IMG/VR virus record: IMGVR_UViG_3300045988_070064
Coordinates: 1-56,962 of that record
Origin: a virus
DNA length: 56,962 nt
Reading direction: 5' to 3' (one strand)
Part shown: piece after piece, positions 1-56,962 of the stretch
Position numbering within the stretch: the stretch's first letter is position 1
Layout of the letters: each line of letters opens with the position of its first letter
Notes under the pieces: generated by a model
Databases searched by the model: none
The model's input: the letters and a program-made list of their open reading frames with translations, nothing else
Told to the model about the DNA's origin: nothing
Translations under genes and position numbers: made by a program

Positions 1-55
1 AGGTATAATATTATGGCAGAATACACAGCAATAGCATTACAGAGTGTCGCACAAG
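1..55. repeat. Terminal overlap copy 1 (circular-assembly signature)
   Basis: nt 1-55 are identical to 56908-56962; identity ends exactly at the contig end. Confidence 0.95.
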
Positions 56-10452: not shown

Positions 10453-10836
10453 ATGAAAAAATTATTTGTGAGCGTGCCTATGAAAGGCAGAACAGAAGAG
10501 GAAATCAAAGCAAGTATACAGAAAATGAAAAAAATTGCTGAAATCTACGAGGGCGAAGAACTGGAACTAATTGACAGTTACATCGAGGACAATCCACCGG
10601 AGAACAATAATCAGGCAATTTGGTATCTTGGTGAAAGCCTGAAAAAGTTGTCAGAAGCAGATGTGTTTATTGGAATCAATGAGAGTTACCAATGGAGCGG
10701 ACGCCAGATTGAAAGAGAAACAGTCTTGGCATATGGAATCAAAAATTATGCAGTCCCGGCGAATTATGTAATTGAAAAATACGATGAACTCTTTGATAAA
10801 TTACATCCGGTTTGTTGCAATGAAGCATCAAATTAA
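10453..10836 (+). CDS. Hypothetical protein (nucleoside 2-deoxyribosyltransferase-like / DUF4406-like fold suspected)
   Basis: MKKLFVSVPMKGRT..., ...ADVFIG...W.G.QIE...A..YGI pattern; weak recollection only. Confidence 0.3.
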   Translation: MKKLFVSVPMKGRTEEEIKASIQKMKKIAEIYEGEELELIDSYIEDNPPENNNQAIWYLGESLKKLSEADVFIGINESYQWSGRQIERETVLAYGIKNYAVPANYVIEKYDELFDKLHPVCCNEASN

Positions 10837-10852
10837 CAAGGAGGTTATAGTT

Positions 10853-11257
10853 ATGTTTACAATAGCACAATGGGTAGTTTTAGTGTTTTTACTTTTGATT
10901 GGGCTTGGTATAAGTCTTGCGTTTTTTGTAGATAAAGACACTAGAATTGCTGGCTTGGTAATTGTTTTTAGTACAGTTGTTGTTACTGTTTTGCTTGCGA
11001 TTTTTTTACACTGGTACAACACATCAACCGCAAGCGGAATCAGAGGCATGAAAGATTTCCGATCAAACCTTTCAAATGGTATTGAGCGAGAAATTACGAT
11101 TACCACGGAAGATGGTAGAGAAGTTTTTCACTATCAAGGGAAAATTGATGTAGAAAGCGATCATACCGATAATTACATCAAGTTTGAAAGTGAAGACGGA
11201 AAAAGGTACATAATTTACTATGGTATACAAGATACTGTAAAAATTATTGAAAAATGA
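10853..11257 (+). CDS. Two-TM membrane protein
   Basis: ATG 10853 after AAGGAGG; two hydrophobic helices, then a soluble domain. Confidence 0.65.
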   Translation: MFTIAQWVVLVFLLLIGLGISLAFFVDKDTRIAGLVIVFSTVVVTVLLAIFLHWYNTSTASGIRGMKDFRSNLSNGIEREITITTEDGREVFHYQGKIDVESDHTDNYIKFESEDGKRYIIYYGIQDTVKIIEK

Positions 11258-11357: not shown

Positions 11358-14138
11358 ATGTCAGCCGAATTGCGGCAAAGAATCCAAGAATATGAAAATT
11401 ACATAAAGCAAAATGGCATTGACGAAGATGCTATTGAAGCATACGTGCAGGCTTGTCAAGTAGCCATAGAGAGAGAAAAAGATATCAAGTATGGATTGAT
11501 ACTCACTAGTCGAGCAAAAGAGATTATAGAGCAATTTATCAAGGATTCCACCGGGGGAAATTCATGGGACCTGGAAAAATATTGCTTTGAAAACGATGTT
11601 TCCTACGAAATCTTAGATAAATTGTATGAGGTTTTGCTTTTGGAAGCCAGAAACAAGGTTGTTGATAGTTTTTTTAGGTACATTGAGAAGAAAAGATTGC
11701 CGAAAGAGCGGTTTTATATGCCGCGGAGAAAGCAATTTATAAAAATTGGTCTTATAGATGCTTTGCAAGGGATGATAGATGACAAATACGACATTTTGTG
11801 CATATCTCTTCCACCGGGGACTGGAAAAGCGCAGCCAATGTATTCAAAAGTGCTTACACCGGACGGATTTGTGAAAATGGGAGATATAAAAGTTGGTTCA
11901 AAAGTTGTCGCTGGAAATGGGAACGTTGCCAATGTCGTTGGAGTTTATCCGCAAGGAAAACGAGATATATATGAAATGACACTTGATGATGGTTCAAAAT
12001 GCCGTTGCTCTGACGAACATTTATGGACCGTCCAAAACAGAGAAGATCGTATCTATGAATCTAAAACAGGAGTTCATAGACAAAGAACAATTACATTGTC
12101 TGATTTGATGAAAAAATTGACCGTAGAAAGCGGAAAACGGTCTAATTATTCAATCGACTATGTAAAACCGATTGATTTTCCACAAAAAGAGTTGTTATTG
12201 CACCCATATGTAATGGGAGCATTACTTGGTGATGGTGGATTGTCTGGTGGTTCGGTTCGATTTTCTACATCAGATATGGAAATTGTTGACAGGATGAACC
12301 GCTATCTTCCAAACGGATATAGACTCAAACATGTGTCGAACTATGATTACGCAGTTGTTGGACATGAGGGGAACAATACAAAAAATGGAAGCCTTGTTTC
12401 TATTGCATTGAAAAAATACGGATTGTTTGGCAAAAAAAGCGAAGATAAGTTTATACCAAATGATTATCAGCATGCTTCAAATGAACAAAGATTATGGTTA
12501 TTGCGAGGTTTGCTAGATACAGATGGAAGTTGCGAAAAAACAAGTATTGAGTATACTACGTGTTCTGAAGAACTGGCGCAAAATGTCAAAGACTTGGTGC
12601 ATTCGCTAGGAGGATATGTGCATGAAACAGTTAGGAATTCCGGATATAAAAAAGACGGAAAATTCATTGAATGCAAACCGTCTCATAGGCTAACGATACA
12701 GTTTTTCAAAGAAAACGAATCTGTATTTGCACTATCAAGACATAAAGAAAAATACAATCCACAAAGAAAAAATGTAAAGCGATTTATAAAGTCAGTTGAG
12801 TATATCGGTAGAGAAGAATGTCAGTGCATTATGATTGATGATCCGTGCCACTTGTATATTACGGATGATTATATCATTACGCACAACACGACGATCGAAA
12901 AGTTTTTCCATTCTGCCGTTATAGGCTGGTATTCGAACGGATATAACCTTTTTTATTCACATAGTGGCGACATTACCAGAATGTACTATGATGGCGTATA
13001 TGACATCGTAACGAACGCAGACGAGTACACATGGAACGAGATATTTCCAAGGCTCAAAGTAACAAGCACAAATGCAAAGTTGGAAACGTTTAATGTAGGA
13101 AAGTATAAGCCATTCCAGTCTGTTCAATGTACGTCCGTTGGAAGTAAGAATGCCGGAAAAGTGCGTGCGAATAAATTTTTGCTTGTAGATGACATGATCG
13201 GTGGTATTGAAGAAGCATTAAATCCACTTTACCTTGATAAATTGTGGGGAAAATATGCTGTAGATGCAAGACAGAGAAAGATTCCGGACGAGGATGGAAA
13301 CCCATGTAAAGAGATACATATTGCTACGAGGTGGAGTGTCCGCGATGTCATTGGACGCATTATACAGGCCTATGAGGGCAACAAAAGAGTAAAAGTAATA
13401 TCAGTACCAGACATTGATCCAGTAACTGGAGAAAGCAATTTTGACTTTGAGTTTGGGGGATATACTGTAAAAGATTTTGAAGATATACAGTTACTTATGG
13501 ACGAAATCTCTTATCGTTGTCTGTACAAGCAGGATCCAATAGAGCGAGAGGGCTTACTGTTTCCAGAAGATAAGATTCGACGTTATCTTAATCTGCCACA
13601 CGGAGAACCAGAGATAATTACCAGTCAATGCGACACAAAGGGGAAAGGAACAGACTATTTTGTACTTCCAGTATTGCAGAAATATGGAGAAGATTACTAT
13701 TGCGTCGATTGTGTGTGTGATAATACGGCGGATTATGAGATGCAGTATGAAAATTCCGCTAATGTGCTGGTGAATAATCAAGTGCAGGAATGCGAGTTTG
13801 AGAGAAATGCTGGTGGAGACCGCGTTGGTATGGAAGTAAATAAACGTGTCGAAAGCAAAGGATGGATATGCAATATTACAGACACACCGACAGAGACAAA
13901 CAAAGAAGCAAGAATTTTCCAGTGTTCTAACTGGATTTTACAGCACGTAATATTCAAGGATCCATCATTGTATAAGCCTAACGAACCATATGGAGTGATG
14001 ATGTCTTTGTTAAAACAGTATTCTGTTTCCGGAAAAAAGCAGTTAGATGATGTTCCAGATGTGTTTTCTAACTTTGCGTTAAGGGTAACTGGTGGAAACA
14101 AGACAAGAAAAGCAGTTATTATTGCAAGTCCGATATAG
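11358..14138 (+). CDS. terL: Terminase large subunit, intein-containing precursor
   Basis: 926 aa. Walker A LPPGTGK is interrupted; removing residues 158-510 restores GTGKTT. LLVDDM Walker B-like motif. Lies upstream of the portal gene. Confidence 0.85.
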   Translation: MSAELRQRIQEYENYIKQNGIDEDAIEAYVQACQVAIEREKDIKYGLILTSRAKEIIEQFIKDSTGGNSWDLEKYCFENDVSYEILDKLYEVLLLEARNKVVDSFFRYIEKKRLPKERFYMPRRKQFIKIGLIDALQGMIDDKYDILCISLPPGTGKAQPMYSKVLTPDGFVKMGDIKVGSKVVAGNGNVANVVGVYPQGKRDIYEMTLDDGSKCRCSDEHLWTVQNREDRIYESKTGVHRQRTITLSDLMKKLTVESGKRSNYSIDYVKPIDFPQKELLLHPYVMGALLGDGGLSGGSVRFSTSDMEIVDRMNRYLPNGYRLKHVSNYDYAVVGHEGNNTKNGSLVSIALKKYGLFGKKSEDKFIPNDYQHASNEQRLWLLRGLLDTDGSCEKTSIEYTTCSEELAQNVKDLVHSLGGYVHETVRNSGYKKDGKFIECKPSHRLTIQFFKENESVFALSRHKEKYNPQRKNVKRFIKSVEYIGREECQCIMIDDPCHLYITDDYIITHNTTIEKFFHSAVIGWYSNGYNLFYSHSGDITRMYYDGVYDIVTNADEYTWNEIFPRLKVTSTNAKLETFNVGKYKPFQSVQCTSVGSKNAGKVRANKFLLVDDMIGGIEEALNPLYLDKLWGKYAVDARQRKIPDEDGNPCKEIHIATRWSVRDVIGRIIQAYEGNKRVKVISVPDIDPVTGESNFDFEFGGYTVKDFEDIQLLMDEISYRCLYKQDPIEREGLLFPEDKIRRYLNLPHGEPEIITSQCDTKGKGTDYFVLPVLQKYGEDYYCVDCVCDNTADYEMQYENSANVLVNNQVQECEFERNAGGDRVGMEVNKRVESKGWICNITDTPTETNKEARIFQCSNWILQHVIFKDPSLYKPNEPYGVMMSLLKQYSVSGKKQLDDVPDVFSNFALRVTGGNKTRKAVIIASPI
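11829..12887 (+). mobile_element. Intein (353 aa) with double-motif LAGLIDADG homing endonuclease
   Basis: Starts Ala-158 right after GTGK, ends ...IITHN|T. Block A-like SKVLTPDGFVKMGDIKVG, block B SDEHLW. LAGLIDADG motifs VMGALLGDGG and LLRGLLDTDGS. Confidence 0.8.
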
Positions 14139-14876: not shown

Positions 14877-14887
14877 GTGGTGTGACA

Positions 14888-16462
14888 GTGAATACAGGAA
14901 GAATTGTAATTTATACAGACGCGGAAGAAATTACAAGCGACAATATAATATCAATTTTGCGTAATGCCATTATAGAGCATGACGTAAATTCAGCAAGAAT
15001 ACAATATCTTCTTGACTATGATGCTGGAATACAGCCTTTGCAAAGAGTAAAGCAAACAAGAACGGATATTGATTGCCAGTGCGTTGATAATGTTGCAAAT
15101 GAGGTTACGGAGTTCAACCTTGGATTCAAGTGGGGAAATCCAATATCTCTTGTTCAGAATGGAAACGGAGAAGATGAAAATTTAACAAGTGCTATTGCTT
15201 CTCTTAATAAATGCTATGAATCGCAAAATTCACGACAAAAGCAACAGGAGTTGGCAAGATACGTTGAAATCTGCGGTGTTGGATATGTATACATTGACAT
15301 AAACACGGAATGGCAAGATGGGGAAAGTTACTTTACATATGACGTATTGGACCCAAGAACGACTTTTGTTGTTCGATCGCTTTACTATAAAGACAAAAGA
15401 GTTATTCTTGCCGGAACATACCGAAAAGAAAAAAACTCAAATACAAGGTATTATACTTGCTTTAGCAAGGATTTTAGATATGAGATAACAGATGGATTGA
15501 AAATCACAAATGGAGAGGCAAAAGAAAAAAACAAGTGGGGCTTTTTAAACCGAAGTGGAGAAGAAAACCCATTACACAAAATACCGATTATTGAGTATAT
15601 ACGATCTTATGATCGCATGGGATGTTTTGAAAGGCAAATTTCGGAAATGGACAATCTGAATCTGCTTATTTCAGACTTCACAAATGATGTAGAGCAAAAC
15701 ACGCAGGCAATATGGCATGGAAATGATGTTGATTTTCCAAAAGAAATAATAAAAAACGAAGATGGAAGTGTAACAGAGGTTGATAAAAAGCCAAGCACCA
15801 ATGAATGGGTTTTGACATATACATCAAAAGACGGAAGACAGCCTTATATCAATCCTCTTGCCGTAGATTATGATTATTCTGGAATGCTTAATAATATGCA
15901 GGCAAGACGACAATTGATACTTCAAAAGTGTAATGTTCCGCAGAGAAATGACAATTCCGGTGGAAGTACAGGAGTTGCAATGAGTGATGCTACTGGATGG
16001 AGCCAAGCAGAAACAGCCGCGGCAAAACAGCAGTTGATTACAGACGGAAGTAAAATGGATGAAGTGAAAGTAGTTCTTTCTGCGATACGCGAATCTGAAA
16101 ACGTATCACAGGATGATCCGTTGCTGAAATTGAAAGCAACAGATGTCCAGCCAAACATAAAGAGGCAGAAAACTTACGAAATGTCAACCAAGGTAAACGC
16201 GATGGCAACGCTGTTAAGTCATGGATTCAGCCTTAAAGATACGGTAGACGCGATACCGTTCTTTGATGATCCAAACGATGTTATTGCCAGAAGTGAGAAA
16301 ATGGTTGAAGCATACCAAAACAGTATCATAAATAAAGATACGAGCAATCAAGCAGAAGGCGGCGATGGAGAACAAGCACCTAACAAGGACCGAATAATGC
16401 AAGATTTGTCCGACCAGACAGAAAACAGTCCAGTCATAGATAAAAGTAGAACAGATAAGTAA
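14888..16462 (+). CDS. Portal protein (SPP1 gp6-like)
   Basis: About 524 aa directly after terL; GTG 14888 lies 7 nt after AGGTGG (GTG 14882 is an alternative); acidic C-terminus. Confidence 0.8.
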   Translation: MNTGRIVIYTDAEEITSDNIISILRNAIIEHDVNSARIQYLLDYDAGIQPLQRVKQTRTDIDCQCVDNVANEVTEFNLGFKWGNPISLVQNGNGEDENLTSAIASLNKCYESQNSRQKQQELARYVEICGVGYVYIDINTEWQDGESYFTYDVLDPRTTFVVRSLYYKDKRVILAGTYRKEKNSNTRYYTCFSKDFRYEITDGLKITNGEAKEKNKWGFLNRSGEENPLHKIPIIEYIRSYDRMGCFERQISEMDNLNLLISDFTNDVEQNTQAIWHGNDVDFPKEIIKNEDGSVTEVDKKPSTNEWVLTYTSKDGRQPYINPLAVDYDYSGMLNNMQARRQLILQKCNVPQRNDNSGGSTGVAMSDATGWSQAETAAAKQQLITDGSKMDEVKVVLSAIRESENVSQDDPLLKLKATDVQPNIKRQKTYEMSTKVNAMATLLSHGFSLKDTVDAIPFFDDPNDVIARSEKMVEAYQNSIINKDTSNQAEGGDGEQAPNKDRIMQDLSDQTENSPVIDKSRTDK

Positions 16463-17181: not shown

Positions 17182-18201
17182 ATGCCACAGACAAAATTAG
17201 CAAACTTAGTAGATCCGGAAGTTATGGCAGATATGGTGTCTGCAAAACTTCCAAAAAAGATTAAATTTTCCCCTATCGCAAGAATTGACACAACTCTTGT
17301 TGGTAGACCGGGAAGTACAATTATTGTACCAAAATACGCATACATCGGAGATGCGGAAGACGTTGCCGAGGGCGTTGCAATGGGAACTACCGTACTTACA
17401 ACGTCCACAACGGAAGCAAAGGTTAAAAAGGCTGGTAAAGCAGTAGAATTGACAGACGAATCTGTTTTGTCTGGATATGGAGATCCTATGGGTACTACCA
17501 TCGACCAGATTTCAAAATCTATCGCGGCTAAAGTAGATAACGATTGTTATGATGCACTTTGCGGTGCTTCTCTTGTTTACAACGGAATGTCAGCAAGCAT
17601 TAGTTATTCTTCGGTTGTGGCGGCAAACAGTAAGTTTGACGATGAGAGTGATCAGTCGCTTACAAAGATTATGTTTATCAATCCGGCGCAGGAAGCAACA
17701 CTTTTGAATGATGCAGACTTCAAGAGTAATGACAAGTACCCGTTGAACGTTATTATGAACGGAACAATTGGATCTATTGCTGGAGCGCAGGTTGTTAAAT
17801 CCAAAAAGGTAAAACTTATTAAGTACACAAAGAACGCAAGTGGAACAATTGAGATCTCTGCCGATACCGTTGAGGAAGACAGTACACATATTCATCTTTC
17901 CACTGCACTTGCACATACCCTCAAAGAAGATTTAAAGATTGGAGACAAAGTAAATGCGGTTGACGCAGAATACTATGCGTGTCCTATCGTTATCGTGTCT
18001 GCCGAAGACCCGAACGAGGATCCGGGCTCAGATGGTGTTTCCGAGGAAGAGAGTGCACTTACGATTTACATGAAGAGAAGCGTTGAAATCGAATCCGATA
18101 GAGACATCCTTGCAAAAACAACGGTTATTTCTGGAGACGAACATTATACTGCCGTTCTTAGCAACGATTCTAAAGTCGTTTTGGCTAAGTTCAAGGCGTA
18201 A
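17182..18201 (+). CDS. Major capsid protein (HK97 fold, N4-gp56-like family)
   Basis: 339 aa after the scaffold gene; strong GGAGG RBS; MPQTKLANLVDPEV... N-terminus typical of this family (from memory). Confidence 0.75.
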   Translation: MPQTKLANLVDPEVMADMVSAKLPKKIKFSPIARIDTTLVGRPGSTIIVPKYAYIGDAEDVAEGVAMGTTVLTTSTTEAKVKKAGKAVELTDESVLSGYGDPMGTTIDQISKSIAAKVDNDCYDALCGASLVYNGMSASISYSSVVAANSKFDDESDQSLTKIMFINPAQEATLLNDADFKSNDKYPLNVIMNGTIGSIAGAQVVKSKKVKLIKYTKNASGTIEISADTVEEDSTHIHLSTALAHTLKEDLKIGDKVNAVDAEYYACPIVIVSAEDPNEDPGSDGVSEEESALTIYMKRSVEIESDRDILAKTTVISGDEHYTAVLSNDSKVVLAKFKA

Positions 18202-34619: not shown

Positions 34620-35231
34620 ATGAAAGGTTTTAAAGGTTTTGATAAAGGACTGGTCTGTAGAGGAAAGCAGTACAAGGAAAATACAGTTTTCGAAGAGGAA
34701 GCAGCTGAAATTTGTAAAAGTGGAATGCACTTTTGCGAAAATCCATTTGATGTCCTTGAGTATTATGATTTAGTTAATACCGATGGAAGTTTTAACGAGT
34801 TTGCAGAAGTGGAGGCTTTGGACAAATGCTTGACAGATGATAATAAAAAATATTGCACTAAAAAACTAAAAATTGGTGCGAAACTATCATTTAGCGGATT
34901 TGTCAATGCCTGTATTGAGTTTGTTTTTGAAAAGACTAAAATTGAACAAACGGATGAAGAAGATGAAACTGTGATTGGCAGTTCCGGAGATTACGCAAAG
35001 GTCACGTCAGAAGGAGAAGATTCAGTAATATGTTGCGCAGGTCACAATTCAATTGTGAGAGCAAAGAAAGGAAGTTGGATTACTCTTTCTGAATGGGAAA
35101 AATCTTTTGAAAAAGATAGATGGATTCCGAAATGCGTAAAAACGAAATTTGTTGACGGAGAAAAAATTAAAGCAGATACATTCTACAGATTGGAGAATGG
35201 GAGATTTGTAGATGTTAAGGAGGATAAGTAA
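34620..35231 (+). CDS. Conserved phage protein (DUF7666-like by recollection)
   Basis: MKGFKGFDKGLVCRGKQY...GMHFCENPFDVLEYY N-terminal signature. Confidence 0.4.
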   Translation: MKGFKGFDKGLVCRGKQYKENTVFEEEAAEICKSGMHFCENPFDVLEYYDLVNTDGSFNEFAEVEALDKCLTDDNKKYCTKKLKIGAKLSFSGFVNACIEFVFEKTKIEQTDEEDETVIGSSGDYAKVTSEGEDSVICCAGHNSIVRAKKGSWITLSEWEKSFEKDRWIPKCVKTKFVDGEKIKADTFYRLENGRFVDVKEDK

Positions 35232-35232
35232 G

Positions 35233-37155
35233 ATGGTAATTAAGTTAAAAAGAATGATTCTTGAAAATTTCATGTACTACATGGCTGTAATGCTTGATTT
35301 TCCGCAGATTGCCAAAATTTTGGCAAAGAACGGAAAGGGAAAGTCGTCAATTGTCAATGCCTTTATGTGGTGCTTGTTTGATTGCGACTACGAATTGAGA
35401 AGCAATCCAAAGGTACGCAGAGAGGTTGACGGAAATCCGGTTGAGGACAAGGACGTTTCCGTGGAACTGGTACTTGACGTGGATGGAAAAGAAGTTACCA
35501 TGCGTAAAGTGCAGAAACGCAAGCATTCCAAAGACGGTACTACTTACAAGGACAATAACGAATACTACATAAACGATGTTCCGAAGACAAAGAAAGAGTT
35601 TGAGGAATATCTTGGTATTGATATGTCTGTTTTGAAAATGTCAACCAATATCAATGGATTTTTAAATCAGAAACCGGCTGATATGCGAGACTTTTTATTT
35701 AAGACGGCAGATTCTACGACTGATTTAGATATTGCCAAGAAAACGGATGGATTGCAGGAACTTTCTTCTCTCTTGGAGAAATACAACACAGAGGAAATCA
35801 AGGCGATGAATCAGAAGAAAGTGAAAGACGTTGACGAATCTCTTCCTATATTAAAGGGGCAGATTGAAGAGAAACAAAGAGATATTGTCAGCAAGCAGGA
35901 AACCGACGTTTCTGATTTAGAATTGCTTAAAAAGGATTTGCAATCAAAATTGGATGCCAATATCAAGGTGCAGACAGACAACGATAAATTGATCACGGAA
36001 TTTGACGATGCGGTCAAGGATGTTATGGATCTGAAATTCGAACTGTCCGGAATGGAGCAGAAAGCCAATTCAGAGATTGCTACCAAGAAGAACAGTTTGG
36101 AGAACAAAAAAGACGAAATTTTGGGGAAAATCGGACGATTTAAGGGCGAGTTATCTAGGTTGAGTAGTGATTTGGCACTCCAAACCAAATTGATCTCGGA
36201 CAATAAGCGGAAGAAAGACGAGCAGGCAACGTTATGGAAGATTGCAAATGAGCGGAAATTTGACGAATCAAGCCTTGTTTGTTCTTATTGCGGTCAAGAA
36301 TACCCGGAAGAGAAAAAAGAGGAAATGCGGGCAGAATTTGAAAGCCACAAAGCGGATGAATTGAAACAGATTGTGGAAAGAGGAAATGCCTTAAAGAAAG
36401 CAATTGACGATTCAAAAATCCTCTTGAAAAACATTGAGGAAAATATTCAAAAGAAAAATGAGGAATCGGAAAAATTGACTACTGAATACGATTCAGTTGA
36501 GAAAGAATTGGAATCTATCAAGCCAATTGATGTGAAGCAGTCGGACAAATACAAAGAGATTGAATCAAAAATTGCTGATCGAGAAGATTCGATGAAGAAG
36601 ATGCAGAATCTCAAAGACATCAAAGCGGAATTAAAAACAGAAGAAGAACGAATCCGTTCTGAATTGGCAGAAGTGGACAGAAAAATTTCCGCTGCCAATA
36701 CGGAATCAGACGAAATCAGGTTGGAAGAATTGAAAAAGTCCAAATTTGATAAAGAACAGGAAAAGGCAGATGCAGAAAAAATCTTGGATTTGCTGAAAGA
36801 ACTGGAGAAAGCCAAAAACGAGGAATTGTCGGAAGAAATCAATTCTAAGTTTGGCATTGTCAATTGGCAGTTGTTCGAAACCGCAAAGAACGGAAATTAT
36901 AAATCCGTTTGCGTTCCGATGATTGACGGCAAGTCTATTTTGACAACGATGTCCAACAAGGGAAACAGAATCCTTGGCAGAGTAGATATCTGTCGTTCGA
37001 TTCAGAAAATCAGCGGTATAAATTGTCCGATTTGGTTGGATGATTTGGAATCATTGGACGAGGAAAATCAGAAGAAAGTCGCTGAAATGGTGGAAAGCCA
37101 GTTGATTATGCTAGCAGTATCAAACAATGCGGAACTGGAAATTAAGGAGGTGTGA
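35233..37155 (+). CDS. SMC/Rad50/SbcC-like AAA ATPase
   Basis: ATG after AAGGAGG; Walker A AKNGKGKSS; about 400 aa of coiled coil with a CxxC hook-like CSYCG; C-terminal IWLDDLESLD Walker B. Confidence 0.7.
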   Translation: MVIKLKRMILENFMYYMAVMLDFPQIAKILAKNGKGKSSIVNAFMWCLFDCDYELRSNPKVRREVDGNPVEDKDVSVELVLDVDGKEVTMRKVQKRKHSKDGTTYKDNNEYYINDVPKTKKEFEEYLGIDMSVLKMSTNINGFLNQKPADMRDFLFKTADSTTDLDIAKKTDGLQELSSLLEKYNTEEIKAMNQKKVKDVDESLPILKGQIEEKQRDIVSKQETDVSDLELLKKDLQSKLDANIKVQTDNDKLITEFDDAVKDVMDLKFELSGMEQKANSEIATKKNSLENKKDEILGKIGRFKGELSRLSSDLALQTKLISDNKRKKDEQATLWKIANERKFDESSLVCSYCGQEYPEEKKEEMRAEFESHKADELKQIVERGNALKKAIDDSKILLKNIEENIQKKNEESEKLTTEYDSVEKELESIKPIDVKQSDKYKEIESKIADREDSMKKMQNLKDIKAELKTEEERIRSELAEVDRKISAANTESDEIRLEELKKSKFDKEQEKADAEKILDLLKELEKAKNEELSEEINSKFGIVNWQLFETAKNGNYKSVCVPMIDGKSILTTMSNKGNRILGRVDICRSIQKISGINCPIWLDDLESLDEENQKKVAEMVESQLIMLAVSNNAELEIKEV

Positions 37156-43583: not shown

Positions 43584-44348
43584 ATGGGTAATTTCATTAA
43601 GATTGACCGAAAAATGCTGGAATGGGAATGGTGGCAAGATATTAACACATCGAGATTGTTTCTCTTTATGCTTTTATCTGCCTACTGGAAAAATGGAAGA
43701 TATAAAGGTGTTGAGATTCCAAGAGGTTCGTTTCCAGCATCAACCGCTGATTTGGCAAAAGCAACATCACTTACGGAAAATGAAATCAGAACCGCCGTAA
43801 AGCATTTGAAAAGCACAGGCGAGATTACAAACAGAAACCATGGTAAATACACCGTATTTACGGTAGTTAAGTATAATGAGTACCAAGATAATTACAAACA
43901 GAATGCAAACAGAATGCAAACTGTTGACAATCAGATAACGAACACAATATTAAAAGAAGATAAGAATGAGAAGAAAAGAAAGAAAGATAATATTCCGTAT
44001 GCGGAAGTTGTTTCTTACTTGAACGAAAAGGCAGATACCAAGTTTAAATCTGATTCCAGTAGCACGCAGAGATTTATCAAGGCTAGATTTGCAGACGGAT
44101 TTACTCTGGAAGATTTCAAGAAAGTGATAGATGTAATGTGTGAGAAATGGAAATCTAACGAGAAGATGAAACAGTATCTCCGACCACAGACATTGTTTGG
44201 TACCAAGTTTGAAAGTTATTTGAATTTGGCACCAAAGGATAAAGCACATAGAGTAGAAAATTCAAAAGCAGAAATTGCTAGAGAGACTAAAGATGAGGAA
44301 CCGGAAATGTCTGACGAAGAATGGACTGAAATGGAGGCAGGCAAATGA
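43584..44348 (+). CDS. Replisome organizer / DnaD-like replication protein
   Basis: FIKIDRKMLEWEWW...; wHTH-like ...TENEIRTAVKHLKSTGEI; C-terminal ...LRPQTLFGTKFESYLN (conserved phage C-terminus). Confidence 0.7.
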   Translation: MGNFIKIDRKMLEWEWWQDINTSRLFLFMLLSAYWKNGRYKGVEIPRGSFPASTADLAKATSLTENEIRTAVKHLKSTGEITNRNHGKYTVFTVVKYNEYQDNYKQNANRMQTVDNQITNTILKEDKNEKKRKKDNIPYAEVVSYLNEKADTKFKSDSSSTQRFIKARFADGFTLEDFKKVIDVMCEKWKSNEKMKQYLRPQTLFGTKFESYLNLAPKDKAHRVENSKAEIARETKDEEPEMSDEEWTEMEAGK

Positions 44349-46177
44349 GATATGCACCGTATGAATTTAAGCCGAGCGATGCGTATGATTTTGCCCGGCA
44401 CGTAGGAATCCTTTGTAAGGAACGAGGGGATGAATTGTTTTTCAAGACTTGTCCGTATTGCAAACCAAGAGCGACACGTGGAAATGTCAATACATTTTCC
44501 ATCAATCTCAAAACCGGACAACACAAGTGCTTACGTGCAAGTTGTGGTGTTTCTGGAAACATGATAACTCTTGCAAGAGATTTTGACTTTTCTCTTGGAA
44601 CAGAGATTGACGAATACTACGCACCGAAGAAAAAGTACCGAGAACTTCCCCAACCGAAAGAACCGGTAATTCCAAAACCAGAAGCACTACAGTATTTGGA
44701 AAGCCGCGGAATATCGGAAGAAGTTGCAAAGAGGTACGAAATAACGGTGCAGACAAAAAATCCTAACATTTTGGTGTTTCCGTTTTATGATGAAGTCGGA
44801 AAACTTAAATTTGTTAAGTACCGTAAAACGGATTTTGACAAGACCAAGGATGCCAATAAAGAGTGGTGCGAGTCAAAGACAAAACCTATTTTGTTTGGTA
44901 TGAAACAATGCGACACTAGTTTTAAACGACTTGTAATTGTAGAAGGTCAGATGGATTGTTTGGCAGTTGCTACAGCAGGAATAAACAATGTTGTATCTGT
45001 TCCGACAGGCGCCAAAGGATTTACATGGGTTCCTTATTGTTGGAATTGGCTATGTAAGTGGGAAGAAATCATCGTATTTGGCGATTATGAGAAAGGGTCT
45101 ATATCTTTACTGGATGAACTTTCAAAACGTCTTAAAACGAAGATTAAGCACGTCAGAGAGGAAAATTATCTTGACTGTAAAGACGCAAATGAGATTCTTC
45201 TTAAATATGGCAAGGAACAAGTCATAAAATGCGTTGAGAATGCGATACCGATTCCGGTAGAAAACGTGATTGACCTTGCTGACGTAAAAGACGTGGATCC
45301 GTATTCACTTGAAAAGATACCAACAAGAATACAAGAGGTTGACAAACTCTTGTGTGGCGGCTTGATATTTGGATGTGTCAACTTGATAACTGGGAAATCC
45401 GGAAAAGGTAAATCCACTTTGGCAAGTCAGATTTTAGGAAATGCGATTGATTGTGGCTACAACGTGTTTGCTTATTCCGGGGAGTTGCCGAACTTCCTTT
45501 TTAAGTCCGCTATAGATTTCCAATCCGCTGGTCCGCAGAATGTGATTGAAGAAAATCGTGGCGAGTATGTCCGTCGCTACGTTCGTAAATCAGCCAAAGA
45601 AGAGATTGAAGAGTGGTACCGAGGAAAATGTATGTTATACGACAGAACTATGGTAAATGACGAAGATACCGACCTTTTAAAGACTATTGAACAGATGATT
45701 ATAAGTCAGAATGTAAGAGTGATTCTGATAGACAATCTTATGACGATGATTAGTCAGACGAATGTCAAAGGAAGTAAGTTGGATTCACAAAGCAATATAT
45801 CCCATAAATTAGAGGATATGGCTAGGTTCTACAACGTTTGTATTATTTTGGTAGCGCACAAAAGGAAAGATAGTGGTATTGATGATGAAGATATGGATGA
45901 TTCAATCCGTGGAGATTCCGATATTGTCAATTCCGCAGGGGTAATCATTCATTACAACGTCAACAAGGACGAGGTGGACATGGACGAGTTTCCACGAATT
46001 ATTGCAGTTACCAAGAATCGTGTGTTTGGCAGAACGAATTACAACGGATGGAAAGTGAAGTTTGACGAAAAATCAAAAAGGATTTATGGAAACAATGACG
46101 ACCCGGACTATCTTCTTGGATGGAATAAATCAGACGGATTCGTTCAGACGGAATACGAAGAATCGCCATTTACTTAA
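44345..46177 (+). CDS. Bifunctional primase-helicase (Zn finger + TOPRIM + DnaB/RecA-like)
   Basis: CPYCK...CLRASC zinc site, VIVEGQMDCLAV TOPRIM, GKSGKGKST Walker A, VILIDNLM Walker B. Confidence 0.8.
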   Translation: MRYAPYEFKPSDAYDFARHVGILCKERGDELFFKTCPYCKPRATRGNVNTFSINLKTGQHKCLRASCGVSGNMITLARDFDFSLGTEIDEYYAPKKKYRELPQPKEPVIPKPEALQYLESRGISEEVAKRYEITVQTKNPNILVFPFYDEVGKLKFVKYRKTDFDKTKDANKEWCESKTKPILFGMKQCDTSFKRLVIVEGQMDCLAVATAGINNVVSVPTGAKGFTWVPYCWNWLCKWEEIIVFGDYEKGSISLLDELSKRLKTKIKHVREENYLDCKDANEILLKYGKEQVIKCVENAIPIPVENVIDLADVKDVDPYSLEKIPTRIQEVDKLLCGGLIFGCVNLITGKSGKGKSTLASQILGNAIDCGYNVFAYSGELPNFLFKSAIDFQSAGPQNVIEENRGEYVRRYVRKSAKEEIEEWYRGKCMLYDRTMVNDEDTDLLKTIEQMIISQNVRVILIDNLMTMISQTNVKGSKLDSQSNISHKLEDMARFYNVCIILVAHKRKDSGIDDEDMDDSIRGDSDIVNSAGVIIHYNVNKDEVDMDEFPRIIAVTKNRVFGRTNYNGWKVKFDEKSKRIYGNNDDPDYLLGWNKSDGFVQTEYEESPFT

Positions 46178-52308: not shown

Positions 52309-52502
52309 AAGAAAAGGTTGATATCAAAGACAAATTGTTGCTTACAATAACAGAAGCCGCCGAATACACCAATATTGGAGAACACAAGTTGCGTGATATG
52401 GTGGAAGAAAAAGATTGTAACTACATATTGAGAAAAGGTTCTCATACGTTAATTAAACGAGTTCCTTTTGAAAAGTACCTTTTATCAAAAGAAGTTATTT
52501 GA
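52305..52502 (+). CDS. xis: Excisionase-family DNA-binding protein
   Basis: LLTITEAAEYTNIGEHKLRDMV...; immediately upstream of the integrase gene. Confidence 0.7.
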   Translation: MKEKVDIKDKLLLTITEAAEYTNIGEHKLRDMVEEKDCNYILRKGSHTLIKRVPFEKYLLSKEVI

Positions 52503-52582
52503 TAACTTGCGAAAGAACATTGTGTGTGATAATATTGTTAATACGCAATGTTCTTTCTTTTTCAATCGAAAGGAGACTAGTC

Positions 52583-53761
52583 ATGAAAAAAAGAAAGGAC
52601 AACAAAGGAAGAGTATTGCAAGACGGAGAATGCCAAAGGAAAGACGGCACCTATATGTTTCAATACAAAAATTTATCTGGAAACAGAAAATGCTTTTATG
52701 CAAAAACACTAGATGAATTGCGTAAAAAGGAAAAGAGCGTCAGGAAAAACGAAGTGTTTGGAATCATAGATGATAACTCTACATTGAATCAGATTTTTGA
52801 CGGATCTTTTCAAGGCAGGAGAAACATATCGGAAAGTACCAAGAATAACTATTTGAACTTATGGAACTATAGAGTTCGAAATGGAATAGGCGGAATTGAA
52901 GCAAGAAAAGTGACAAGATCTCATGTCATTAAATTTTACAATGAATTGTCTGACAACGGCTTGTCGTATTCTACCATCAAAGCATACAACATTATGCTTT
53001 CCCTTGTATTGGATGAAGCAATGAAAAATGACATAATATTAAAAAATCCATGCAAGGACTGCTTGAAGTTGTATGCAAACAACAAAAAGACAAGAGAAGC
53101 GCTGACTTTGGATCAGCAGATGGCATTTCTTGATTTTATTTTGGACAGTAAGGTTTATTCAAAGCATTATCCTCTACTCTTTCTTATGATTACAACGGCG
53201 GTGCGCTGCGGAGAAGCAATAGGTTTGACCTGGAATGATATCGACTTTAAGAGCAGAGAAATCAATATCGATCATCAATTGCTTTACAAAAAGCATAATG
53301 GCAGGTATCGGTTTTACATCGAAACTCCAAAAACGGAATCCGGAAAAAGAAAAATTCCAATGACGCGGGAGTTATGCAAAGTAATGATGGATTTTAGAGA
53401 GAAGCAATTTTCTTCTGGAATCAGATCTGATACAATAGACGGATATTCCAATTTTGTTTTTATAACTAAAAGAGGAAATCCAATCATGCCATCTGCAATA
53501 AATAATACATTGCTAAATATTGTAAACGCATATAATAAAGATGTAAAAGAAGATGATGTTTTTCTGCCGCACATATCTGCGCACATTTTAAGGCATACCG
53601 GATGTACACGGATGGCTGAAAAAGGAATTGATGTAAAGGTGCTACAAAAGATTATGGGGCATTCAGATATTTCCGTAACAATGAATATTTATACTCATGT
53701 TACATCAGATCGTTTGCATGAAGAGATAAAGAAACTCGAAATTTCGGAGATTGCCAGATGA
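52583..53761 (+). CDS. int: Tyrosine integrase (Tn916-Int-like, N-terminal arm-binding domain)
   Basis: ATG after GAAAGGAG; ...AVRCGEAIGLTWNDID (Arg box), ...HILRHTGCT..., ...GHSDISVTMNIYTHV (His/Tyr box). Confidence 0.9.
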   Translation: MKKRKDNKGRVLQDGECQRKDGTYMFQYKNLSGNRKCFYAKTLDELRKKEKSVRKNEVFGIIDDNSTLNQIFDGSFQGRRNISESTKNNYLNLWNYRVRNGIGGIEARKVTRSHVIKFYNELSDNGLSYSTIKAYNIMLSLVLDEAMKNDIILKNPCKDCLKLYANNKKTREALTLDQQMAFLDFILDSKVYSKHYPLLFLMITTAVRCGEAIGLTWNDIDFKSREINIDHQLLYKKHNGRYRFYIETPKTESGKRKIPMTRELCKVMMDFREKQFSSGIRSDTIDGYSNFVFITKRGNPIMPSAINNTLLNIVNAYNKDVKEDDVFLPHISAHILRHTGCTRMAEKGIDVKVLQKIMGHSDISVTMNIYTHVTSDRLHEEIKKLEISEIAR

Positions 53762-56907: not shown

Positions 56908-56962
56908 AGGTATAATATTATGGCAGAATACACAGCAATAGCATTACAGAGTGTCGCACAAG
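56908..56962. repeat. Terminal overlap copy 2
   Basis: Identical to nt 1-55. Confidence 0.95.

What the first reader, a model, noticed from the sequence alone, without database searches (positions are those of the whole stretch)
11829..12887. Class-3-type (Trp-Cys-Thr) intein with LAGLIDADG endonuclease splitting the terL P-loop
The TerL Walker A motif reads LPPGTGK, then a 353-aa insert, then TTIEKFF. Excision would restore GTGKTT.

The insert begins with Ala, not Cys or Ser. It ends ...IITHN followed by Thr(+1). It carries two LAGLIDADG motifs (GALLGDGG and GLLDTDGS).

Established knowledge: class 3 inteins lack an N-terminal nucleophile and carry a non-contiguous WCT triplet, Trp at block B position 12, Cys at block F position 4 and Thr at block G position 5. 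Here block B is S-D-E-H-L-W, which puts Trp at B12. The block-F strand is EECQCIMIDD, so Cys490 or Cys488 would be F4. Block G is I-T-H-N, which puts Thr at G5. All three hallmarks are visible by eye.
Basis: partly seen in the sequence, partly recalled or inferred. Interest (0 to 1): 0.65.

Follow-up and report, generated by a model that had tools for sequence, protein, structure and literature searches.

The report
Class 3 intein in phage terminase
The large terminase gene of this gut phage is interrupted, exactly inside its ATP-binding loop, by a self-splicing protein element (a class 3 intein with a homing endonuclease); the reading is correct, but this kind of element in this kind of gene is already well known.

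Summary
The terL ORF (11358..14138, 926 aa) carries a 353-aa in-frame insert (11829..12887) between Lys157 and Thr511 of the Walker A motif. At least 112 close intein-less TerL alleles (87-99% identical) read SLPPGTGK|TTIEKFFH, which is the predicted spliced product.

The insert models confidently (pLDDT 95.3) as a HINT domain plus a LAGLIDADG endonuclease. PI-SceI is the best structural match. By sequence it aligns residue for residue with the crystallised class 3 MchDnaB1 intein: His221, Trp223, Cys490 and Thr508 match His65, Trp67, Cys124 and Thr143.

Across 98 homologous inteins, Cys490, Thr508, His509, Asn510 and the block B His are invariant. Trp223 occurs in 91/98, Ala1 in 88/98 and Thr+1 in 90/98. 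Cys488 occurs in only 57/98, so Cys490 is F:4.

Five intein-bearing alleles have nearly uniform inteins (97.3-99.3% nt) in more divergent exteins (91-97%). They share a roughly 30-nt silent flank haplotype that intein-less alleles lack. This indicates recent horizontal spread.

Class 3 LAGLIDADG inteins in phage TerL, and K|T P-loop insertions, are already published. This is a new member of a known kind. Splicing chemistry is inferred, not shown.

The parts
11358..14138 (+). terL precursor ORF (926 aa): N-extein, intein and C-extein in one frame, no internal stop
   Evidence: Pfam Terminase-T7_RNaseH-like scores 29.5 bits against a cut-off of 27 on the C-terminal part. The homologue in Dulem virus 39 is annotated as terminase. 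The portal gene (14882..16462) and major head gene (17182..18201) lie downstream.
11358..11828 (+). N-extein (aa 1-157), ending in the first half of Walker A (SLPPGTGK)
   Evidence: The junction sequence is identical to that of at least 112 intein-less alleles.
11801..11828 (+). 5' flank haplotype linked to intein presence (TGC ATA TCT CTT CCA CCG GGG ACT GGA AAA). All differences from intein-less alleles are silent. It is a putative co-conversion tract and the upstream half of the homing site.
   Evidence: There are 10-13 differences in -30..+24 between intein+ alleles and close (>=90% identical) intein- alleles, against 0-7 among intein+ alleles. For the window versus L002, 12 of 38 gene-wide mismatches fall here.
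11829..12887 (+). Intein, 353 aa (precursor aa 158-510), Ala1 ... Thr-His-Asn
11829..12050 (+). N-terminal splicing (HINT) region, intein aa 1-74, blocks A and B
   Evidence: Delimited by mini-intein relatives that lack the endonuclease. Aligns to gp41-1, MchDnaB1 and Msm DnaBi1 inteins.
12018..12026 (+). Block B His221-Leu222-Trp223 (B:10-B:12). Trp223 is the W of WCT.
   Evidence: His is 98/98 and Trp 91/98 in the family. These residues align to His65/Trp67 of MchDnaB1.
12051..12767 (+). Endonuclease region (intein aa 75-313): linker/DNA-recognition part plus LAGLIDADG core
   Evidence: Absent from the 142-147 aa mini-inteins P0105, P0119 and P0120. Pfam LAGLIDADG_3 and Hom_end hit here. The profile alignment matches PI-SceI 205-386 at E 5.5e-17.
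12204..12242 (+). LAGLIDADG motif 1 (PYVMGALLGDGGL). Putative catalytic Asp292 (intein D135) at 12231..12233.
   Evidence: for coordinates. G130 is invariant and G134/D135/G136 are >=90% conserved. Aligned to the LGLWIGDG motif of PI-SceI.
12489..12533 (+). LAGLIDADG motif 2 (RLWLLRGLLDTDGSC). Putative catalytic Asp389 (intein D232) at 12522..12524.
   Evidence: D230 and D232 are invariant in 61 sequences. Aligned to the LAGLIDSDG motif of PI-SceI.
12768..12887 (+). C-terminal splicing region, intein aa 314-353, blocks F and G
12825..12827 (+). Cys490 (intein Cys333), block F position 4: the predicted initiating nucleophile
   Evidence: Invariant 98/98, whereas Cys488 is 57/98. Aligned to Cys124 of MchDnaB1.
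12879..12887 (+). Block G Thr508-His509-Asn510 (G:5-G:7). Thr508 is the T of WCT. Asn510 cyclises to release the intein.
   Evidence: All three are 98/98. Aligned to T143-H144-N145 of MchDnaB1.
12888..12890 (+). Thr511 (+1, G:8): the C-extein nucleophile and, after splicing, the Walker A Thr of GKT
   Evidence: Position +1 is Thr in 90/98, Ser in 7/98 and Cys in 1/98.
12888..14138 (+). C-extein (aa 511-926): remainder of the ATPase plus the RNaseH-like nuclease domain

Best explanation
The window is a complete temperate tailed-phage genome. Its large terminase gene is interrupted in frame by a 353-aa bifunctional intein, inserted between the Lys and Thr of the Walker A P-loop (GTGK|TT).

The precursor cannot bind ATP properly until the intein removes itself. 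Because the intein begins with Ala, it most likely splices by the class 3 route:
1. Cys490 (block F position 4) attacks the Lys157-Ala158 peptide bond, assisted by His221, Trp223 and Thr508. This gives a thioester-branched intermediate.
2. The N-extein is passed to the side chain of Thr511 (+1).
3. Asn510 cyclises and frees the intein.
4. An O-to-N shift restores the native GKTT P-loop.

The middle of the intein (aa 75-313) is a two-motif LAGLIDADG homing endonuclease. It is presumed to cut intein-less terL alleles at the P-loop-coding DNA during co-infection. Repair then copies the intein plus about 30 nt of flank into the cut allele.

Shown here: the exact boundaries, the fold, the signature residues and their conservation, the patchy distribution, and the population-genetic signs of recent horizontal spread.

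Inferred: the chemistry of splicing and the activity and target of the endonuclease.
For: Boundaries:
- A single 353-aa gap at GK|TT against Dulem virus 39 TerL.
- At least 112 intein-less clusters at 87-99% identity have the junction SLPPGTGK|TTIEKFFH.

Fold:
- AlphaFold2 model with pLDDT 95.3 and pTM 0.92.
- Foldseek finds PI-SceI at E 3e-19 and TMq 0.74-0.77.
- It also finds the class 3 MchDnaB-1 intein (TM 0.80 normalised to target) and Msm DnaBi1.

Class 3 signature:
- Ala1, with His221/Trp223, Cys490 and Thr508 aligned on His65/Trp67, Cys124 and Thr143 of MchDnaB1. PMC7664689 defines these roles.
- Family conservation: C 98/98, T 98/98, HN 98/98, W 91/98, A1 88/98, +1 Thr/Ser 97/98.
- The definition and mechanism of class 3 come from PMC2807308.

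Endonuclease:
- Pfam LAGLIDADG_3 at E 7.8e-11.
- Both acidic motif residues are conserved and aligned to the PI-SceI motifs.

Function and mobility:
- The intein-bearing allele sits in a complete circular genome (55-nt terminal overlap).
- It recurs in five 90%-identity clusters from independent samples, one with 147 member sequences.
- Inteins are 97.3-99.3% identical in nt while their exteins are 91.3-96.6% identical. Those exteins are each about as close to, or closer to, an intein-less allele (win-L002 97.8%, L007-L003 95.8%, L012-L013 95.4%).
- Intein dS is 0.018-0.076 against extein dS 0.10-0.31. Intein dN/dS is about 0.2.
- A shared silent flank haplotype is restricted to intein-bearing alleles.
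Against: - No biochemical evidence exists for splicing or for the role of Cys490.
- Generic intein HMMs miss the splicing domain. Pfam Intein_splicing scores 14.3 bits against a cut-off of 35.8. NCBIfam intein_Nterm scores 15.2 against 24.5.
- PMC7664689 shows that grafting WCT onto gp41-1 is not sufficient for splicing, so the triplet alone does not prove mechanism.
- The dN/dS and dS figures rest on few substitutions (7-27 per intein pair).
- The flank haplotype could reflect ordinary recombination rather than endonuclease-initiated homing.
Confidence: 0.88

Rival explanations
1. It is a genuine, splicing intein, but the chemistry is not class 3. For example, Thr511 could attack the N-terminal junction directly, as in class 2 KlbA-type inteins. 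Cys490 would then play only a structural or activating role.
For: Ala1 is also the hallmark of class 2 inteins (PMC2807308). The WCT triplet alone did not confer class 3 splicing on gp41-1 (PMC7664689).
Against: Class 2 inteins lack WCT, and in the KlbA type the +1 residue that attacks directly is Cys. Here +1 is Thr and WCT is complete. The block F Cys is invariant in 98/98 relatives. The nearest solved relatives with Ala1/WCT (MchDnaB1, Msm DnaBi1) are experimentally class 3.
Confidence: 0.05
2. The intein splices, but its endonuclease is no longer active. The intein is inherited vertically or shuffled by ordinary homologous recombination between co-infecting phages. On this view the shared flank haplotype is simple linkage to a single ancient invasion.
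For: Mini-intein derivatives without the endonuclease exist at the same TerL site (P0105), which shows that endonuclease loss happens in this lineage. HE-region dN/dS (0.13-0.35) is higher than extein dN/dS (0.03-0.11). Phage genomes are highly mosaic.
Against: Both LAGLIDADG motifs and their acidic residues are intact and conserved. HE dN/dS is still well below 1. Intein dS is 3-10 times lower than extein dS. Only about 30 nt of flank travels with the intein. That is the pattern expected from double-strand-break repair with a short co-conversion tract.
Confidence: 0.2
3. It is a decayed, non-splicing insertion, so terL in this genome is a pseudogene or a defective prophage remnant.
For: No direct evidence of splicing. 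Standard intein HMMs fall below threshold.
Against: - The reading frame is open across all 926 codons.
- All catalytic positions are intact and invariant in the family.
- Extein dN/dS between intein-bearing alleles is 0.03-0.11, so there is strong purifying selection on the host gene.
- The allele recurs in several independent metagenomes and in a complete circular genome.
Confidence: 0.03

Closest known systems
Class 3 DnaB inteins: mycobacteriophage Bethlehem DnaB (MP-Be DnaB), Mycobacterium smegmatis DnaBi1 (PDB 6bs8), M. chimaera DnaB1 (PDB 6rix/6riy)
   Same: No N-terminal nucleophile, a WCT triplet at B:12/F:4/G:5, C-terminal His-Asn and Thr/Ser at +1. Insertion is in an ATPase P-loop. 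Sequence matches are significant (single sequence 4e-6, family profile 1e-16 and 1e-15) with the catalytic residues in register. The HINT domain superposes structurally.
   Different: The host protein is TerL, not DnaB. Identity in the splicing domain is only about 26-30%. The solved Msm and Mch inteins are mini-inteins without an endonuclease, whereas this one has a full LAGLIDADG domain. MP-Be DnaB starts with Pro, this one with Ala.
Actinobacteriophage terminase large subunit inteins (Kelley et al. 2016, PMC5050341; bioRxiv 10.1101/2025.01.02.630785)
   Same: These are inteins in the ATPase domain of phage TerL. [quoted passage not shown] Their distribution is sporadic and horizontal transfer is proposed.
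   Different: The host here is a low-GC gut phage (37.7% GC) with a T7-type nuclease-domain terminase, not an actinophage Terminase_1/6. In Kelley et al. the TerL sites named as class 3 in the passages read are c, d and e. The class of the K|T site (a) was not established from the text read. So the combination 'class 3 at K|T of TerL' is documented in general terms by Tori et al. 2010 but was not matched here to a specific characterised example.
gp41-1 naturally split intein (PDB 6qaz; engineered WCT variant 6riz)
   Same: It is the best sequence match in the PDB (9e-12 and 7e-10), with about 37% identity over the N-terminal 72 residues. Block G is THN and block F is similar.
   Different: gp41-1 is class 1 (Cys1, Phe at B:12, Asp at F:4), naturally split, has no endonuclease and resides in a DnaB-like helicase.
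PI-SceI (VMA1 intein) and archaeal VMA / PI-PfuI intein endonucleases
   Same: Same overall two-domain architecture: a HINT splicing domain with an inserted LAGLIDADG endonuclease and a DNA-recognition region. PI-SceI is the best structural match (E 3e-19, TM 0.74-0.77). The endonuclease profile match is 5.5e-17 with both LAGLIDADG motifs aligned.
   Different: PI-SceI is a class 1 intein (Cys1, Cys+1) in a eukaryotic V-ATPase. Sequence identity is only 16-18%.

Membership tests
Intein (HINT-domain protein-splicing element) | In-frame insertion whose precise removal restores a conserved host protein sequence | tested here: met
   There is a 353-aa gap exactly at GK|TT against intein-less TerL. 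At least 112 intein-less clusters carry SLPPGTGK|TTIEKFFH.
Intein (HINT-domain protein-splicing element) | HINT fold with blocks A, B, F and G, C-terminal His-Asn and a nucleophilic +1 residue | tested here: met
   The AF2 model (pLDDT 95.3) matches PI-SceI, MchDnaB-1, gp41-1 and Msm DnaBi1. THN|T is present and conserved 98/98. Note that the Pfam and NCBIfam intein models were below their cut-offs.
Intein (HINT-domain protein-splicing element) | Protein splicing actually occurs | not testable with these tools
   The evidence is indirect only. The essential gene is under purifying selection (extein dN/dS 0.03-0.11), and the allele recurs in a complete genome and in several metagenomes.
Class 3 inteins (Tori et al. 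2010) | No Cys/Ser/Thr at intein position 1 | tested here: met
   Ala158. Position 1 is Ala in 88/98 relatives.
Class 3 inteins (Tori et al. 2010) | WCT triplet: Trp at B:12, Cys at F:4, Thr at G:5 | tested here: met
   Trp223, Cys490 and Thr508 align to Trp67, Cys124 and Thr143 of the class 3 MchDnaB1 intein (roles per PMC7664689). Conservation is 91/98, 98/98 and 98/98.
Class 3 inteins (Tori et al. 2010) | Ser/Thr (rarely Cys) at +1 | tested here: met
   Thr511. The family has Thr 90, Ser 7 and Cys 1 of 98.
Class 3 inteins (Tori et al. 2010) | Obligate block F Cys nucleophile, two branched intermediates, and N-terminal cleavage independent of the +1 residue | not testable with these tools
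   Requires expression and mutagenesis (C490A, T511A, N510A).
LAGLIDADG homing endonuclease (two-motif, intein-borne) | Two LAGLIDADG motifs, each ending in a conserved acidic residue, in an alpha-beta-beta-alpha-beta-beta-alpha core | tested here: met
   Pfam LAGLIDADG_3 scores 42.5 bits against a cut-off of 22.5. GDG (D292) and DTDG (D389) are aligned to the PI-SceI motifs and conserved. The fold matches PI-SceI and I-DmoI.
LAGLIDADG homing endonuclease (two-motif, intein-borne) | Site-specific cleavage of the intein-less allele and homing | tested here: inconclusive
   No enzymology. The population data fit homing: patchy distribution, intein dS well below extein dS, and a flank haplotype about 30 nt long linked to the intein. 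Ordinary recombination is not excluded.
Phage terminase large subunit | N-terminal P-loop ATPase plus C-terminal RNaseH-like nuclease, encoded next to the portal gene | tested here: met
   Pfam Terminase-T7_RNaseH-like scores 28.9-29.5 bits against a cut-off of 27. The Walker A GTGKTT is restored after excision. The homologue is annotated as terminase. Portal and major head genes lie downstream. NCBIfam termin_lrg_T7 is below its cut-off (27.7 against 150).

The most novel reading that the evidence does not exclude
The roughly 10 silent differences confined to the 30 nt upstream of the insertion point may not be a passive co-conversion scar. They could be target-site immunity: intein-less terL alleles in the same gut-phage population would have recoded the P-loop DNA without changing the protein, so as to escape the intein endonuclease. 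That would be a live arms race at an invariant protein motif. More broadly, this 'AQP...THN' class 3 clade sits at GK|T in TerL, PhoH, AAA+, DnaB and other ATPases, and at a second PhoH site. It may be a generalist whose endonuclease reads the DNA that encodes the P-loop. Its closeness to the class 1 gp41-1 intein would argue that class 1 and class 3 interconvert by divergence rather than by convergence.
Probability: 0.2. Interest if true: 0.5.

Novelty: new member of a known kind. Interest (0 to 1): 0.3.

Why it matters
For annotation, this 926-aa 'terminase' should be described as a 573-aa TerL plus a 353-aa class 3 intein. Generic intein HMMs miss the splicing domain, so such genes are easily mis-annotated.

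For biology, it adds a gut-phage (low-GC) example to a phenomenon so far documented mainly in actinophages. The material is unusually clean for study. Near-identical intein-plus and intein-minus terL alleles exist in public metagenomes, the insertion site is known to the nucleotide, a flank haplotype is linked to the intein, and there is a natural mini-intein derivative. Together these would allow direct tests of homing, co-conversion length and class 3 chemistry.

A compact Ala1/Thr+1 class 3 intein with a natural 142-aa mini version could also interest protein engineers. It does not change what is known about inteins.

Tried and rejected
1. All were below their cut-offs:
   - Pfam Intein_splicing: 14.3 bits against 35.8.
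   - Hom_end_hint: 14.3 against 32.1.
   - NCBIfam intein_Nterm: 15.2 against 24.5.
   Confirmation came from PDB sequence searches, a family profile and the structure model.

2. Alternative junctions were considered and rejected. Shifting the boundaries by one residue would give GTG-NTT or similar, which no intein-less allele shows.

3. Cys488 as the F:4 nucleophile was rejected. It is conserved in only 57/98 and is not the residue aligned to Cys124 of MchDnaB1.

4. A second intein of this family elsewhere in the window was searched for and not found. The SbcC-like and primase/helicase P-loops are uninterrupted.

5. blastn against GenBank phages found only one relative, Dulem virus 39. The informative alleles came from metagenome protein clusters.

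6. The supplementary tables of Tori et al. 2010, which list the WCT inteins including the terminase examples, are not held. I therefore could not name a specific published TerL K|T class 3 intein.

7. Coordinates of the structure model are not exposed, so distances in the active site could not be measured.

8. GC content is not a useful foreignness signal here: intein 36.9%, extein 39.1%, window 37.7%.

9. The minus-strand ORFs inside the intein (67-72 aa) have no support and were disregarded.
Full report
**What is in the sequence.** The window contains a 926-codon ORF at 11358..14138 on the + strand.
- The stretch 11829..12887 translates to 353 residues, beginning AQPMYSKV and ending YIITHN.
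- It is preceded by ...CISLPPGTGK and followed by TTIEKFFH.
- Precursor residues 158, 223, 488, 490, 508, 509, 510 and 511 are A, W, C, C, T, H, N and T.

**The boundaries are fixed by natural intein-less alleles.**
- The only GenBank phage with DNA similarity is Dulem virus 39, whose first gene is annotated as terminase. Its 582-aa product is 77% identical to the window protein and aligns with one gap of exactly 353 residues between GK and TT.
- A search with the conceptually spliced 573-aa protein found thousands of relatives.
- Of the best 120 clusters (87-99% identity), 115 are 573-577 aa and lack the insert. At least 112 of these read SLPPGTGK|TTIEKFFH, identical to the predicted ligation product.
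- Five clusters (926 or 930 aa) carry the insert at the same place.

Shifted junctions are therefore excluded. The first residue of the element is Ala and the +1 residue is the Walker A Thr.

**What the insert is.**
- Pfam recognises only the endonuclease confidently: LAGLIDADG_3 at E 7.8e-11, 42.5 bits against a cut-off of 22.5. The generic intein splicing models are below threshold.
- Sequence search against solved structures is clearer: gp41-1 intein 9e-12, M. chimaera DnaB-1 intein 4e-6, M. smegmatis DnaB intein 1 at 1e-3.
- With a profile of 61 homologues these become 8e-23, 1e-16 and 1e-15. The endonuclease domain of PI-SceI appears at 5.5e-17, with GDG and DTDG aligned on its two LAGLIDADG motifs.
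- An AlphaFold2 model built on that alignment is very confident (pLDDT 95.3, pTM 0.92).
- Its best structural matches are PI-SceI (E 3e-19, TM 0.74-0.77) and the archaeal VMA and PI-PfuI intein endonucleases. For the splicing domain alone, the matches are the class 3 MchDnaB-1 intein (TM 0.80 on the target), gp41-1 and Msm DnaBi1.
- Three natural mini-inteins of the same family (142-147 aa; one in a related TerL at the same site) lack intein residues about 75-313. This delimits the splicing domain as residues 1-74 plus 314-353.

**The class 3 assignment.** Tori et al. defined class 3 inteins by two features: no Cys/Ser/Thr at position 1, and a Trp-Cys-Thr triplet at block B position 12, block F position 4 and block G position 5.
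- The block F Cys makes the first attack on the N-terminal junction. Thr or Ser at +1 is usual (PMC2807308).
- The HMMER alignment to MchDnaB1 places His221/Trp223 on His65/Trp67, Cys490 on Cys124 and Thr508-His509-Asn510 on Thr143-His144-Asn145.
- Beyer et al. describe Cys124-His65-Thr143 plus Trp67 as the class 3 catalytic constellation in that crystal structure (PMC7664689).

I extracted 97 full-length homologous inteins from the protein search and aligned them with the window intein:

| Position | Conservation (of 98) |
|---|---|
| Block B His | 98 |
| Trp (B:12) | 91; Asn in the other 7 |
| Cys490 (F:4) | 98 |
| Cys488 | 57 |
| Thr508, His509, Asn510 | 98 each |
| Position 1 | Ala 88, Ser 3, Cys 1; the remaining 6 non-nucleophilic (Glu 2, Pro 2, Leu 1, not listed 1) |
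| +1 | Thr 90, Ser 7, Cys 1 |

The mechanism remains an inference from signature residues. PMC7664689 shows that grafting WCT onto a class 1 intein is not sufficient for splicing.

**How it most likely works.**
1. The precursor has its P-loop split, so it should be inactive as an ATPase.
2. Cys490 attacks the Lys157-Ala158 bond to give a thioester branch.
3. The N-extein is transferred to Thr511.
4. Asn510 cyclises.
5. An O-N shift yields GTGKTT.

Splicing must work in vivo, on three grounds. TerL is essential for packaging. Extein dN/dS between intein-bearing alleles is 0.03-0.11. The allele sits in a complete circular genome (55-nt terminal overlap) and recurs in five clusters from independent samples, including a pig-gut metagenome.

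**Evidence that the element is mobile.** I retrieved DNA for five intein-bearing alleles, five intein-less alleles (four distinct sequences) and Dulem virus 39.
- The inteins are 97.3-99.3% identical in nucleotides.
- Their exteins are only 91.3-96.6% identical and are interleaved with intein-less alleles. The window extein is closest to intein-less L002 (97.8%), L007 to L003 (95.8%) and L012 to L013 (95.4%).
- Synonymous divergence of the intein (0.018-0.076) is 3-10 times lower than that of the flanking exteins (0.10-0.31). Intein dN/dS is about 0.2 and endonuclease-region dN/dS is 0.13-0.35, on small counts.
- All intein-bearing alleles share a silent haplotype in the 28 nt before the insertion and the first codons after it: TGC ATA TCT CTT CCA CCG GGG ACT GGA AAA | ACG ACG, with minor variants. 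Close intein-less alleles (>=90% identical) differ from it at 10-13 positions in -30..+24.
- For the window versus L002, 12 of the 38 mismatches in the whole 1722-nt gene lie in this 55-nt interval.

This is what homing with a short co-conversion tract predicts. Two alternatives remain open. Ordinary recombination could produce the pattern. The intein-less alleles could also have recoded the site to escape cleavage. I cannot separate these without enzymology.

**Context.** The window is a temperate siphovirus-like genome.
- It encodes portal, major head, tape measure, tail fibre-like, SbcC-like, primase/helicase and integrase genes, essentially all on the + strand.
- It carries no tRNAs.
- No second intein of this family is present, although two other P-loop genes in the window have intact GKGK|S sites.

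**Comparison with what is known.** The same intein family (33-56% identity, mostly beginning AQPL and ending THN|T) sits at GK|T/S in PhoH-like, AAA+, DnaB, AAA_24 and other ATPases as well as in TerL. It also occupies a second site (MRGR|T) in PhoH. tblastn finds it in 809 GenBank phage records, including terminase genes of Shewanella phage FishSpeaker and Klebsiella phage N1M2.

The literature already covers this ground:
- The K|T insertion in TerL is a 'classic' P-loop insertion, and class 3 inteins occur in mycobacteriophage TerL (PMC5050341).

This element is therefore a new member of a known kind. What differs from published cases is the host (a low-GC gut phage with a T7-type nuclease-domain terminase) and the availability of a clean natural intein-plus/intein-minus population.

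**Verdict.**
- Observation: confirmed.
- Interpretation: supported, with Cys490 as F:4.
- Novelty: new member of a known kind.
- Interest: 0.3. It is a tidy and potentially useful example, but not surprising to an intein or phage specialist.

Noticed in passing
window 1-55 and 56908-56962: The first 55 bases are repeated exactly at the end of the window. This looks like an assembler overlap of a circular contig, so the window is probably a complete phage genome of about 56.9 kb. Its relative Dulem virus 39 is a 59.75 kb circular record.
   Followed up: partly
window 35212-37155 and 44345-46177: Two other P-loop genes in this genome are not interrupted: an SbcC-like nuclease ATPase (NGKGK|SS) and a primase/DnaB-like helicase (GKSGKGK|ST). 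They have the same GK|S/T site that members of this intein family occupy in other genomes. No second copy of the intein family exists in the window.
   Followed up: partly
proteins P0052, P0062, P0072, P0073, P0081, P0087, P0101: The same intein family also occupies a second, non-P-loop site in PhoH-like proteins (...FMRGR | intein | TF...). Three of these copies begin with Ser instead of Ala while keeping the block F Cys. One other family member (P0104) begins with Cys. These are natural WCT inteins with an N-terminal nucleophile.
   Followed up: no
L010 1498-2961 (protein P0105); also P0119, P0120: A 142-aa mini-intein of the same family, with the endonuclease region deleted, sits at the same GK|TT site of a related TerL. 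That TerL's extein is 64-78% identical to the window's. Similar minis occur in another TerL and in an AAA+ protein. They are natural minimal class 3 splicing domains.
   Followed up: partly
window 11829-12050 and 12768-12887: The best match among solved structures is the class 1, naturally split gp41-1 intein (E 9e-12, about 37% identity over 72 residues). It scores better than the class 3 DnaB inteins. This may bear on the published debate over whether class 3 arose from class 1 by divergence or independently (PMC7664689).
   Followed up: partly
alignment of 98 family inteins, column of window Trp223: Seven of 98 family members have Asn instead of Trp at block B position 12 while keeping the invariant block F Cys and block G Thr. 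This is an 'NCT' variant of the WCT triplet.
   Followed up: no
window 10453-11257 versus L003-L006 1697-2905 and L011/L013 1-431: The gene immediately upstream of terL differs between close relatives. It is an RtcB-like ligase in L003-L006 and an N6/N4 DNA methyltransferase in L011 and L013. In the window there are two small ORFs (127 and 161 aa, the second apparently membrane-associated). The terL 5' boundary is a mosaic junction.
   Followed up: no
window 52499-53761; protein P0175: A tyrosine-integrase-like gene indicates a temperate lifestyle. One near-identical intein-less TerL (P0175) is recorded on a contig of 1.48 Mb, consistent with a prophage in a bacterial chromosome. The host was not identified.
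   Followed up: no
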